DNA from: Gammaproteobacteria bacterium
GTDB taxonomy: Bacteria; Pseudomonadota; Gammaproteobacteria; JBCCGL01
DNA: 64,000 nt
Direction of reading: 5' to 3'
NCBI GenBank assembly: GCA_965277715.1
Contig: OZ255836.1
Location: forward strand, 2,880,001 to 2,944,000
The notes under the pieces are model-generated. The model searched no databases. It was not told where the DNA came from and saw nothing but the letters and a program-made list of their open reading frames with translations. Shown here piece by piece: positions 22,049 to 22,232 of this stretch; within the stretch, counting starts at the first letter, position 1, and each line of letters begins with the position of its first letter. Position numbers and translations under genes: made by a program.

Positions 22049-22070
22049 GTTTCTATCCTCTATTTTGTGT

Positions 22071-22113
22071 AAAAAAAAACCCCTGACAGCCGCATTAGGC
22101 CATCAGGGGTTTT
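22071..22113 (-). terminator. Rho-independent attenuator terminator in the dapA leader
   Basis: CCCCUGAUGGCC-UAAUGC-GGCUGUCAGGGG followed by U9, located 5' of the dapA SD. Confidence 0.85.
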
Positions 22114-22132
22114 ATCTCGAACCTAATCCGAC

Positions 22133-22192
22133 CTATACGCGCAATTTTCGCAGCGGTTTGAGTCGGTTTTTGTGGTGGTTTAGCGAGTGCAT
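22133..22192 (-). CDS. Putative leader peptide MHSLNHHKNRLKPLRKLRV
   Basis: ATG at 22192 and TAG at 22135-22133. The stop codon overlaps the antiterminator arm; three AAA Lys codons. Confidence 0.65.
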   Translation of the reverse strand: MHSLNHHKNRLKPLRKLRV

Positions 22193-22203
22193 GGTAGTCG
22201 CCG

Positions 22204-22232
22204 ATTCTGTGCGATTGTGGTGTAAAGTGCAA
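22204..22232 (-). promoter_or_regulatory. Putative sigma70 promoter of the dapA leader
   Basis: TTGCAC-17 bp-CAGAAT, 11 nt upstream of the leader ATG. Confidence 0.55.

What the first reader, a model, noticed from the sequence alone, without database searches (positions are those of the whole stretch)
22049..22232. Candidate lysine-sensing leader-peptide attenuator upstream of dapA
Seen on the - strand, in order: promoter TTGCAC-17-CAGAAT; a nearly leaderless 19-codon ORF MHSLNHHKNRLKPLRKLRV (22192-22133) with AAA Lys codons at 8, 12 and 16; a 12-bp terminator with U9 (22113-22071); then the dapA SD. UAGGUCGGAUUAGG (22135-22122, beginning at the leader stop codon) can pair with CCUGAUGGCCUA (22107-22096), which is the terminator's 5' arm, giving a mutually exclusive antiterminator. 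CCGACU inside the leader can pair with GGUCGG as a 1:2 helix. The DapA keeps the His56 and Glu84 equivalents associated with lysine feedback. Established knowledge: proteobacterial lysine genes are mostly controlled by the lysine riboswitch or LysR-type regulators, while classical attenuators are described for trp/his/leu/ilv/thr/phe. Inference: a ribosome-mediated Lys attenuator on a gammaproteobacterial dapA may be undescribed. The His (CAC CAC) or rare CGA Arg codons are alternative sensors.
Basis: partly seen in the sequence, partly recalled or inferred. Interest (0 to 1): 0.8.

Follow-up and report, generated by a model that had tools for sequence, protein, structure and literature searches.

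The report
Lysine-codon leader attenuator before dapA
A tiny lysine-rich reading frame followed by a transcription stop signal sits just ahead of a lysine-pathway gene here and in many related bacteria, most likely letting the cell switch the gene on when lysine runs short.

Summary

**In the window (- strand):**
- A 19-codon ORF (22192-22133) carries three AAA Lys codons.
- A 12-bp hairpin with a run of nine U follows at 22109-22071.
- Only 22 nt separate the U-run from the dapA start, so there is no room for a promoter.

**In other genomes:**
- The same layout precedes the orthologous "type-2" dapA in 36 of the 76 loci I tabulated. Genera include Aeromonas, Oceanisphaera, Zobellella, Agarivorans, Amphritea, Marinobacterium, Tolumonas, Reinekea and Thiofilum.
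- Ten further loci keep the Lys leader but lack a clean U-run.
- Upstream neighbours differ between loci and are often divergently transcribed, so the hairpin is not just the tmpAB terminator.
- Lys makes up 16.4% of leader residues against 3.0% in DapA.
- The Lys codons are invariant while neighbouring codons drift.

**Weaker points:**
- The antiterminator is plausible, and masked folding behaves as the classical model predicts. Its statistical support is modest.
- There are no expression data.

**Novelty:** no Rfam, NCBIfam or Pfam family matches, and ten literature searches found no description. I read it as a lysine-specific member of the classical leader-peptide attenuators, apparently undescribed for proteobacterial dapA.

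The parts
22227..22232 (-). candidate -35 hexamer TTGCAC
   Evidence: Read. It matches 3 of 6 consensus positions. The same hexamer stands 17 nt before CACAAT in L005. The consensus scan did not list it.
22204..22209 (-). candidate -10 hexamer CAGAAT, 11 nt before the leader ATG (near-leaderless leader mRNA)
   Evidence: Read. Relatives L005, L057, L079, L083 and L099 have a -10 hexamer 6-9 nt before the leader ATG. The transcription start was not measured.
22133..22192 (-). leader ORF of 19 codons plus TAG: MHSLNHHKNRLKPLRKLRV
   Evidence: Read. It is homologous to the leaders in alignment A2. Covariance model R1 scores the window 51.7 bits, E = 8.8e-12 (the window was part of the model's seed).
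22145..22171 (-). stretch holding the three AAA Lys codons (22171-69, 22159-57, 22147-45), the proposed sensor codons
   Evidence: Read. Family-wide Lys enrichment is shown, in-frame AAR preference, and invariance of Lys codons within genera.
22161..22166 (-). region 1, CCGACU, which pairs with region 2
   Evidence: The helix is in the MFE and centroid folds. The composite 1:2 hairpin is -13.3 kcal/mol.
22122..22135 (-). region 2, UAGGUCGGAUUAGG, starting at the leader stop codon; pairs either with region 1 or with the terminator 5' arm
   Evidence: In masked folds, a ribosome at Lys8, Lys12 or Lys16 leaves UAGGUCG:UGGCCUA (-10.5 kcal/mol). A ribosome at the stop codon leaves the 5' arm without this pairing. 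The duplex is -9.9 kcal/mol.
22098..22109 (-). region 3, terminator 5' arm CCCCUGAUGGCC
22080..22091 (-). region 4, terminator 3' arm GGCUGUCAGGGG
   Evidence: Six of 9 consensus stem pairs show compensatory changes across the 31 loci.
22071..22079 (-). run of nine U after the terminator stem
22056..22060 (-). dapA Shine-Dalgarno GAGGA, 7 nt before the ATG
21167..22048 (-). dapA (4-hydroxy-tetrahydrodipicolinate synthase) of a distinct 'type-2' clade
   Evidence: TIGR00674, 297 bits. Best solved relative is 2rfg at 405.6 bits, against 226.7 bits for E. coli 1dhp.
22247..22843 (-). upstream tmpB-like HD-domain oxygenase gene; its stop codon lies 15 nt before the -35 hexamer
   Evidence: NF049941, 268.8 bits, below the cut-off of 300 but the best hit.

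Best explanation
This is a ribosome-mediated (leader-peptide) transcription attenuator that ties dapA expression to the supply of charged tRNA-Lys.

**Proposed steps.**
1. A weak promoter just after tmpB starts a nearly leaderless mRNA.
2. That mRNA encodes a 19-residue peptide with three AAA Lys codons.
3. When Lys-tRNA is plentiful, the ribosome runs to the UAG stop and covers region 2 (22135-22122). The 12-bp hairpin with nine U then forms, and transcription stops 22 nt before dapA.
4. When Lys-tRNA is scarce, the ribosome stalls at an AAA codon and covers region 1. Region 2 stays free to pair with the terminator's 5' arm, and RNA polymerase reads through into dapA.

**Shown.** The anatomy is as described. 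The element is conserved as a unit with this dapA clade. The Lys-codon signal is specific to the reading frame.

**Inferred.** The alternative pairing, the ribosome positions, and the response to lysine.
For: **1. The element recurs in front of orthologous dapA genes.**
- Of the 76 loci I tabulated, 36 have a hairpin with a U-run preceded by a Lys-cluster ORF. Ten more have the Lys ORF without a clean U-run (sequences).
- On a DapA tree of 102 rows, all 46 of these lie within one clade of 74 rows (support 96). Presence or absence needs 7 changes.

**2. The geometry is constant in the 31 non-redundant loci.**
- Leader length is 19-29 codons.
- Leader stop to hairpin is 19-38 nt.
- Hairpin end to dapA start is 23-64 nt, too short for a promoter.

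**3. It is not the neighbour's terminator.**
- Upstream genes differ: DM13, NUDIX, rhodanese, glycerate kinase, TauD and methyltransferases.
- In 4 of 10 loci checked the neighbour is on the opposite strand.
- Each element has its own promoter-like site, for example TTGACA-17-AAAGAT or AAATAT, 27-34 nt before the leader ATG.

**4. The Lys signal is strong.**
- 117 of 714 leader residues are Lys (16.4%), against 3.0% in DapA.
- The best-ORF Lys sum is 128, against 24.7 +/- 7.1 in shuffles; the highest of 200 shuffles was 47.
- AAR triplets number 117 in frame, against 24 and 40 out of frame.
- Within Oceanisphaera/Zobellella (6 loci) and Aeromonas (4 loci) the AAA and CGN codons never change. 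Meanwhile 11 of 23 and 9 of 24 codons change the amino acid. The peptide sequence is therefore not what is conserved.

**5. Structure.**
- The terminator stem shows compensatory change at 6 of 9 pairs.
- In the window, masked folds give the antiterminator when a ribosome sits at Lys8, 12 or 16, and not when it sits at the stop codon.
- Across 31 loci, mean pairing of the 5' arm is 0.73 with the ribosome at Lys codons and 0.56 at the stop. It is higher at Lys in 22 of 31 loci.
- Cognate 5' arms pair better than non-cognate arms (P = 0.033; the window ranks 3rd of 31).
- In 13 Aeromonadaceae/Psychromonadaceae loci the stop-codon helix has 82.1% of cells paired, against 26-43% when the partner is slid.

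**6. The target makes sense.**
- DapA is the first committed enzyme of the lysine/diaminopimelate branch (established knowledge).
- The same genomes use lysine riboswitches elsewhere, and in Aeromonas before lysC, but not at this dapA.
Against: - **No expression data.** No RNA run holds the stretch. Nothing shows termination, read-through or translation of the ORF.
- **The window alone is marginal.** It has three non-adjacent Lys codons (P about 0.08).
- **The antiterminator is weak.**
  - It is -10.5 kcal/mol against a terminator of -22.4 kcal/mol, and the terminator wins in every full-length equilibrium fold.
  - Its duplex energy is no better than chance: z = -0.52, with 56 of 200 shuffles as good. 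Across 34 loci the mean z is only -0.95.
  - Compensatory change in the antiterminator is thin: 1 pair of 11 changes on both sides, and shuffles reach 78.2% paired against 82.1% observed.
- **The masked-fold model fails in some loci.** 9 of 31 do not show the expected drop at the stop codon, among them Aeromonas L050, L055 and L056.
- **The closest relatives lack the element.** Ten loci with the nearest DapA (84-89% identity: L001-L004, L008, L143-L147) have a TATAAT promoter instead.
- **Arg codons are co-conserved.** They occur as K-R-K and make up 9.7% of leader residues against 5.2% in DapA. The sensor may therefore not be purely Lys.
- **Loci are not independent.** Several come from one genus, so the P values are optimistic.
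Confidence: 0.75

Rival explanations
1. It is a leader-peptide attenuator, but the signal is not Lys-tRNA charging. The conserved basic K-R-K / K-x-K cluster, or the AAA-rich run, would stall ribosomes through the nascent chain or slow decoding. The element would then report general translation capacity, arginine as well as lysine, or a small molecule acting in the exit tunnel.
For: - Arg codons are co-conserved with the Lys codons. The alignment consensus reads AAA CGN AAA.
- Arg is 9.7% of leader residues against 5.2% in DapA.
- AAA is preferred over AAG 92:25 in leaders, against 134:141 in the dapA coding sequence.
- An Arg/Lys-X-Arg/Lys motif is named as a context for macrolide-dependent arrest in the abstract of PMC12583479. 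I saw only the search listing.
Against: - The regulated gene is the lysine-branch enzyme, and Lys is by far the most enriched residue.
- The spacing and number of basic residues vary between lineages, unlike a fixed arrest peptide.
- The peptide is otherwise unconserved.
- Some leaders have Lys without an adjacent Arg: KQK in Amphritea, KVKVKK in L046.
Confidence: 0.12
2. A structured RNA that binds a protein or metabolite (riboswitch-like, or an RNA-binding regulator) controls the terminator. On this view the short ORF is incidental.
For: - Nucleotide blocks are conserved: AAACGnAAAC, GCGG, UGCGUAACC and the CCCCGGU arm.
- The antiterminator statistics are weak.
Against: - The ORF is open, carries a start codon, and ends at a fixed distance from the hairpin in all 31 loci. 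The other two frames hold 48 and 46 stops.
- AAR triplets are frame-specific.
- Third-position changes keep Arg and Leu codons synonymous.
- No Rfam family matches in the window or in 6 relatives, the lysine riboswitch and T-box included. The same riboswitch model does find its targets elsewhere in 4 of 5 of these genomes.
Confidence: 0.06
3. The hairpin is merely the terminator of the upstream tmpAB operon, and the small ORF is a chance frame. dapA would be expressed by leak-through or from an unrecognised promoter.
For: - The hairpin lies 138 nt downstream of the tmpB stop codon and could also stop tmpAB transcripts.
Against: - The hairpin and ORF travel with dapA, not with tmpAB, across 36 loci that have different and often divergent neighbours.
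- Only 22 nt lie between the U-run and the dapA ATG.
- In 4 of 9 leader-bearing genomes tested, this is the only gene passing the dapA model. Read-through must therefore occur there.
Confidence: 0.04

Closest known systems
Classical leader-peptide transcription attenuators of Proteobacteria (trpL, hisL, pheL, thrL, leuL, ilvL/ivbL; Rfam leader families such as Trp_leader RF00513)
   Same: - Own promoter and a short ORF enriched in codons for the pathway's end product.
- A stop codon placed next to region 2.
- An intrinsic terminator directly before the structural gene.
- An alternative pairing that uses the terminator's 5' arm.
- A peptide sequence that is itself unconserved.
   Different: - The regulatory codons are Lys (AAA), interleaved with Arg.
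- The target is dapA.
- Lys codons are spread out (K-R-K-x-K-K) rather than in a tight run.
- Some members, probably the window among them, look leaderless or nearly so.
- No sequence similarity to any Rfam leader family, and no NCBIfam or Pfam leader-peptide model matches.
- That the classical set lacks lysine is my recall of the literature (Vitreschak et al. 2004), not read here.
Lysine riboswitch (L-box / LYS element, Rfam RF00168)
   Same: A lysine-related cis-acting RNA control of lysine biosynthesis and transport genes, often acting through a terminator. It is present in the same genomes (4 of 5), and in Aeromonas before lysC and an NhaC-type transporter.
   Different: - It binds free lysine with a roughly 180-nt five-helix fold.
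- Here there is no such fold: no RF00168 match in the window or in 6 relatives at E up to 1.
- The sensor here is a translated ORF, which would read tRNA charging rather than free lysine.
Leader-peptide attenuation of the Thermus thermophilus lysine (alpha-aminoadipate pathway) gene cluster
   Same: As I recall it, a short leader ORF with lysine codons and a terminator controls lysine biosynthetic genes. That would make lysine-specific ribosome-mediated attenuation a precedent.
   Different: - A different phylum, a different pathway (AAA, not diaminopimelate) and a different target gene.
- I expect no sequence relationship.
- This is recalled only. The paper (Tsubouchi et al., J Biol Chem 2005, from memory) was not found in the held library, so I verified no detail.
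T-box leaders specific for tRNA-Lys (reported for lysK in the Bacillus cereus group; recalled)
   Same: Senses uncharged tRNA-Lys and controls a terminator/antiterminator choice.
   Different: - It binds tRNA directly to a long structured leader without translation.
- It is mostly found in Firmicutes.
- No T-box match appeared in the Rfam scans here.

Membership tests
Ribosome-mediated (leader-peptide) transcription attenuator | Short translatable ORF with its own start and stop, upstream of the structural gene and downstream of a promoter | tested here: met
   - The ORF is at 22192-22133.
- An equivalent ORF of 19-29 codons is present in all 31 non-redundant loci, while the other frames carry 48 and 46 stops.
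- Promoter-like sites precede the leaders.
- Translation itself was not measured.
Ribosome-mediated (leader-peptide) transcription attenuator | Enrichment of codons for the amino acid made by the regulated pathway | tested here: met
   - Lys is 16.4% of leader residues against 3.0% in DapA.
- The Lys sum is 128 against 24.7 +/- 7.1 in shuffles.
- AAR triplets are in frame 117 times against 24 and 40.
- The window alone has 3 of 19, P about 0.08.
Ribosome-mediated (leader-peptide) transcription attenuator | Intrinsic terminator between the leader ORF and the structural gene, with no promoter after it | tested here: met
   - A 12-bp stem of -22.4 kcal/mol is followed by nine U, 22 nt before the dapA ATG.
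- In the family, the hairpin end lies 23-64 nt before dapA.
- Six of 9 stem pairs covary.
Ribosome-mediated (leader-peptide) transcription attenuator | Mutually exclusive antiterminator using the terminator's 5' arm, masked by a ribosome at the leader's end and freed by a ribosome stalled at the regulatory codons | tested here: inconclusive
   For:
- The window's masked folds behave as required.
- 22 of 31 loci show more 5'-arm pairing with the ribosome at Lys codons than at the stop.
- The cognate-arm test gives P = 0.033.
- The Aeromonadaceae helix is 82.1% paired against 26-43% when slid.

Against:
- Duplex energies are barely better than shuffles: mean z = -0.95, and the window z = -0.52.
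- Only 1 of 11 pairs changes on both sides.
Ribosome-mediated (leader-peptide) transcription attenuator | Conserved with the regulated gene across species, independent of the upstream neighbour | tested here: met
   - 36 of 76 loci carry the full element and 10 more a partial one.
- All lie in one DapA clade.
- Neighbours differ, and 4 of 10 are divergent.
Ribosome-mediated (leader-peptide) transcription attenuator | Read-through rises on starvation for the cognate amino acid or on poor tRNA charging | not testable with these tools
   No RNA run holds the stretch. An experiment is needed.
Lysine riboswitch (RF00168) | Match to the conserved L-box sequence and structure model | tested here: not met
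   - No RF00168 hit at E up to 1 in window 20000-24000.
- None in 6 related loci.
- The model does find 6 sites over its cut-off elsewhere in 4 of 5 of these genomes.
Known Rfam amino-acid leader families (Trp, His, Leu, Thr, Phe leaders) and T-box | Match to the family covariance model at or near its gathering score | tested here: not met
   - The only hits over the element are chance-level matches far below cut-off (rdlD at 24 bits against 50, NsiR1, MIR9486).
- One Trp_leader hit of 24.2 bits against 41 lies on the opposite strand of L069.

The most novel reading that the evidence does not exclude
This is an old, widespread and so far unannotated family of lysine-specific leader-peptide attenuators in Gammaproteobacteria, dedicated to a distinct dapA isozyme.

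In the same cell, free lysine would be read by the L-box riboswitch at lysC and at transporters. Charged tRNA-Lys would be read by this leader at dapA. Lysine would then join the small set of amino acids with a classical attenuator in Proteobacteria.

Variants include leaderless leader mRNAs, and a Marinomonas form that has swapped the U-run terminator for another expression platform.
Probability: 0.65. Interest if true: 0.7.

Novelty: new member of a known kind. Interest (0 to 1): 0.62.

Why it matters
- **A gap in the textbook set.** Classical attenuation has been a textbook mechanism for decades, with a fixed list of amino acids. Lysine control in Proteobacteria is usually attributed to the L-box riboswitch and to LysR/ArgP-type regulators.
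- **A new layer of control.** A conserved Lys-codon leader before dapA would add a tRNA-charging-based control of the lysine/diaminopimelate branch. It occurs in culturable genera such as Aeromonas, Marinobacterium, Amphritea and Agarivorans.
- **It would explain a paradox.** This dapA can sit behind a strong terminator with no promoter of its own.
- **A regulated isozyme.** In 5 of 9 genomes tested it accompanies a second, canonical dapA. In the other 4 it is the only copy.
- **Practical value.** It gives genome annotators a new small ORF and cis-element to mark. It may also offer a compact lysine-responsive part for engineering.

Tried and rejected
- **No genome for the window.** None is held, so copy number and relatives could not be asked directly. 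I worked through loci and their genome handles instead.
- **Expression.** No RNA holder was listed for window 21700-22600. Laying the contigs of four DNA runs on 21950-22350 showed the leader to be identical. The only substitution was A>G at 22267, inside tmpB. Some homopolymer-length differences appeared around the A-run and U-run in the short contigs of one run. This carries no information on covariation or expression.
- **Metagenome scan** with the window's DapA gave 49 loci. The only close ones, 5 loci at 84-89% identity, are the leaderless TATAAT-promoter type. L005 remains the only near homologue of the window's leader.
- **Covariance model R1 used to look for sister leaders before other lysine genes in five genomes.**
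  - Only the dapA leaders scored 32-95 bits as full-length hits in the expected place.
  - A 48-bit hit in G001 is the 3' end of a gene plus its terminator.
  - Hits near 24 bits are 3' ends of Lys-rich genes plus terminators, or otherwise unrelated.
  - No regulon was found at this sensitivity.
- **Equilibrium folding of the full leader** always keeps the terminator. The argument therefore has to be kinetic, as for classical attenuators.
- **Literature.** Ten searches found no description of a Lys leader before dapA.
  - I read passages of PMC10117765. It proposes a Thr/Lys-codon sORF before an aspartate dehydrogenase gene in Sinorhizobium.
  - PMC12360218 lists lysC under riboswitch and Rho control.
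  - The main text of PMC2965389 mentions neither lysine nor dapA.
  - PMC10433800 was irrelevant.
  - Two look-ups of the 2003 LYS-element paper failed.
  - Supplements were not opened.
  - Subscription papers (Vitreschak 2004, Tsubouchi 2005) are cited from recall only and could hold a prior description.
- **Exact look-up of 7 leader peptides** among 15 billion predicted proteins found none.
- **Not used.** Structure prediction, complex prediction and atlas searches do not bear on a cis-RNA question.
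Full report
**What is in the window**

On the - strand the tmpB-like gene ends with TAA at 22249-22247. Fifteen nucleotides later comes TTGCAC (22232-22227), then 17 nt, then CAGAAT (22209-22204). 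Eleven nucleotides further on is an ATG at 22192.

The ORF reads MHSLNHHKNRLKPLRKLRV and stops at TAG 22135-22133. AAA Lys codons stand at positions 8, 12 and 16.

A hairpin CCCCUGAUGGCC / GGCUGUCAGGGG (22109-22080, loop 22097-22092, -22.4 kcal/mol) is followed by nine U (22079-22071).

The dapA Shine-Dalgarno GAGGA (22060-22056) and ATG (22048) follow at once. The gene product passes the dapA equivalog model (TIGR00674, 297 bits against a cut-off of 206). The upstream genes match TmpA (538.7 bits, over cut-off) and TmpB (268.8 bits, under the cut-off of 300 but the best hit).

The 166-nt stretch 22205-22040 folds far better than shuffles: -48.9 kcal/mol, z = -3.59, 0 of 200 as good.

It matches 7 of 12 positions by my count.

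**Is the window alone convincing?**

No.
- Three Lys codons in 19 is matched by 8% of composition-preserving shuffles put through the same ORF-picking rule.
- No Rfam family matches. There are four chance-level hits, all far under their cut-offs.

The case has to rest on comparison with other genomes.

**Comparison: the element travels with this dapA**

No genome is held for the window, so I collected loci by protein.
- The first scan gave 34 loci.
- An alignment-based scan gave 80.
- Genome samples gave 12 more.
- A metagenome scan gave 49.

The DapA belongs to a distinct clade.
- It is about 40-47% identical to the ordinary gammaproteobacterial DapA.
- It is present at E <= 1e-85 in only 5 of 399 genomes of a class-level sample.
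- In an order-level sample of 151 genomes, only 6 places, the query's own included, reach 50% identity or more.
- Its best solved relative is 2rfg at 405.6 bits, against 226.7 bits for E. coli 1dhp.

Reading the upstream regions and scoring them by script gave the following split of the 76 loci tabulated:

| Class | Loci |
|---|---|
| G+C-rich hairpin with U-run, preceded by a Lys-cluster ORF of 19-29 codons | 36 |
| Lys ORF (4-6 Lys within 12 residues) but no clean U-run: the Marinomonas group and L035 | 10 |
| Neither | 30 |

- The carriers include Aeromonas (5 loci), Oceanisphaera, Zobellella, Tolumonas, Agarivorans, Aliagarivorans, Amphritea, Marinobacterium, Neptuniibacter, Reinekea and Thiofilum. 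MAGs labelled Granulosicoccaceae, Cellvibrionaceae, Psychromonadaceae and Acidiferrobacterales also carry it.
- The 30 loci with neither include the alphaproteobacterial members in that table and the Succinivibrionaceae. They also include the five loci closest to the window's DapA (L001-L004, L008). One locus, L057, has a hairpin but a one-Lys ORF.
- The five closest metagenome loci (L143-L147, 84-89% identity) also lack the element.

The geometry across 31 non-redundant loci:

| Measure | Range | Median |
|---|---|---|
| Leader stop to hairpin | 19-38 nt | 26 |
| Hairpin end to dapA start | 23-64 nt | 40 |

On a FastTree of 102 DapA rows, all 46 leader-bearing rows fall inside one clade of 74 rows (support 96).
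- Presence or absence needs 7 changes, so one gain and several losses is possible.
- The rows outside that clade were scanned only for terminators, not for leader ORFs.
- The window sits in an eight-row subclade (support 99) with L005 (leader present), L044 and the five L001-type rows (leader absent).

**It is not the neighbour's terminator**

The genes upstream of the element differ. In the ten loci tested they are DM13, NUDIX, rhodanese, glycerate kinase, TauD and methyltransferases. In four of those ten (Aliagarivorans, Aeromonas, Zobellella, Agarivorans) the neighbour is on the opposite strand.

Each element has its own promoter-like site.
- A well-conserved TTGACA-17-AAAGAT, AAATAT or AAGGAT lies 27-34 nt before the leader ATG in Aeromonas, Oceanisphaera, Zobellella, Tolumonas and the Psychromonadaceae MAG.
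- In L005, L057, L079, L083 and L099 the -10 hexamer ends only 6-9 nt before the ATG, which implies a leaderless leader mRNA.
- The window (TTGCAC-17-CAGAAT, then 11 nt) resembles its nearest leader-bearing relative L005 (TTGCAC-17-CACAAT, then 6 nt).

No locus has room for a promoter after the hairpin, so dapA transcription must pass through the terminator. In 4 of 9 leader-bearing genomes tested (G002, G003, G004, G553) this is the only gene passing the dapA model. In the other 5 a canonical copy is also present. Two of the four are MAGs and may be incomplete.

**The signal is lysine codons read in frame**

In 31 non-redundant leaders:
- Lys is 117 of 714 residues (16.4%), against 3.0% in the DapA proteins of the same loci.
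- Arg is 9.7% against 5.2%.
- His is 2.5% against 2.8%.

Applying my ORF-picking rule to 200 dinucleotide shuffles of each region gives a summed Lys count of 24.7 +/- 7.1 (maximum 47), against 128 observed.

AAR triplets occur 117 times in the leader frame, against 24 and 40 in the other frames. Those frames carry 48 and 46 stop codons.

Within genera the Lys (AAA) and Arg (CGN) codons do not change, while 11 of 23 codons (Oceanisphaera/Zobellella, 6 loci) and 9 of 24 (Aeromonas, 4 loci) change the amino acid. CGT, CGC and CGA alternate synonymously. This is the pattern of a leader peptide. The codons and the RNA are under selection, not the peptide.

AAA is preferred over AAG 92:25, against 134:141 in the dapA coding sequences.

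The loci are phylogenetically related, so these statistics overstate independence. The pattern nevertheless holds across more than a dozen genera.

**The switch**

The terminator stem is supported by compensatory changes at 6 of 9 consensus pairs.

For the antiterminator I ran four tests.

1. *Duplex energy between the upstream RNA and the 5' arm, against shuffles.* Mean z over 34 loci is -0.95, which is weak. The best site lies at or up to about 25 nt before the leader stop codon in most loci.
2. *A ribosome-mask model on transcripts truncated before the 3' arm.* Mean pairing probability of the 5' arm is 0.73 with the A site on Lys codons, 0.56 on the stop codon and 0.66 without a ribosome. 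It is higher at Lys than at the stop in 22 of 31 loci. Nine loci, three of them Aeromonas, do not follow.
3. *Cognate against non-cognate 5' arms.* The cognate is better, P = 0.033, and the window ranks 3rd of 31.
4. *Pair counts in 13 Aeromonadaceae/Psychromonadaceae loci.* The helix between (U)UGCGU(A/G)ACC(G) at the stop codon and CCGGU..GC(A) in the 5' arm has 82.1% of cells paired, against 26-43% when the partner is slid. Only one pair changes on both sides, and shuffles reach 78.2%.

In the window itself:
- A ribosome on Lys8, Lys12 or Lys16 leaves UAGGUCG:UGGCCUA plus GGUU:AACC (-10.5 kcal/mol).
- A ribosome on the stop codon abolishes that pairing.
- With no ribosome the 1:2 hairpin forms (-13.3 kcal/mol).
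- In full-length equilibrium folds the terminator always wins (-22.4 kcal/mol). The choice would have to be kinetic, as in the classical cases.

I rate the alternative structure plausible and positionally conserved, but not proven.

**Known families**

- Rfam 15 has nothing matching in the window or in six relatives.
- The lysine riboswitch model does find 6 sites elsewhere in 4 of 5 of these genomes. In Aeromonas these lie before lysC (aspartokinase III model, 693.5 bits) and before an NhaC-type transporter.
- Five leader peptides match no NCBIfam or Pfam model.
- Seven are absent from a collection of 15 billion predicted proteins.
- A covariance model of the element (R1, built from A2) finds only the dapA leaders convincingly in five genomes. 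The other hits I inspected were 3' gene ends with terminators, or otherwise unrelated.
- Ten literature searches found no description.
- The nearest item is a suggestion of a Thr/Lys-codon sORF before an aspartate dehydrogenase gene in Sinorhizobium (PMC10117765, passages read).
- I recall a lysine leader-peptide attenuator for the Thermus thermophilus alpha-aminoadipate cluster but could not retrieve that paper.
- The comparative-genomics papers on proteobacterial attenuators and on the LYS element were not available to me. Supplements were closed.

**Verdict**

It is a lysine-codon leader-peptide attenuator controlling a distinct dapA isozyme. It is one member of a conserved gammaproteobacterial family that appears unannotated and, as far as I could search, undescribed.

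Mechanistically it is a new member of a well-known kind, not a new kind. The lysine response, the transcript ends and the translation of the leader remain to be shown experimentally.

Noticed in passing
L094 2-1477 and 1489-2373; L103 1-1347; by eye also L086, L092, L095: In Succinivibrionaceae the same dapA clade has no leader. It sits directly after lysS (lysine--tRNA ligase, TIGR00499, 680-697 bits), with an 11-nt gap in L094. This is a different way of tying dapA to lysine use.
   Followed up: partly
L036-L038, L066, L069, L073, L077, L082, L088 (about 90-260 nt before dapA): Marinomonas-type loci keep a Lys-rich leader, for example MNNNILNKRNGDKRKAKKLCGADVWN. Their hairpin CCGGCAGC...GCUGACGG is followed by a pyrimidine-rich tract instead of a U-run, and a second long-range pairing reaches towards the Shine-Dalgarno. 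This may be a Rho-dependent or translational variant.
   Followed up: partly
genomes G001, G551, G552, G435, G347 versus G002, G003, G004, G553: The attenuated dapA is a second copy beside a canonical dapA in 5 of 9 genomes tested, and the only copy passing the model in 4. The window's own genome could not be checked.
   Followed up: partly
L001-L004, L008, L143-L147 (upstream of dapA): The ten closest DapA relatives of the window (84-89% identity) lack the leader. They have a divergent upstream gene and a TTGTAC-17-TATAAT promoter. The element has therefore been lost or replaced recently in that lineage.
   Followed up: partly
window 22247-24027 (- strand): A tmpA-tmpB pair, for breakdown of 2-trimethylaminoethylphosphonate, lies directly upstream. 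Their reading frames overlap by 4 nt (22840-22843). TmpB scores under its NCBIfam cut-off. DNA holders of this stretch include runs labelled sponge metagenome.
   Followed up: no
window 19709-21136 (+) and 21167-22048 (-): hldE (736 bits) converges on dapA, with only 30 nt between the two stop codons. The scan listed no terminator-like hairpin there.
   Followed up: no
L137 and L142 (Aeromonas bestiarum genome G551): Lysine riboswitches stand before an NhaC/Tet(35)-like Na+/H+ antiporter-family gene and before lysC. Riboswitch and leader-peptide control of lysine genes therefore coexist in one genome.
   Followed up: partly
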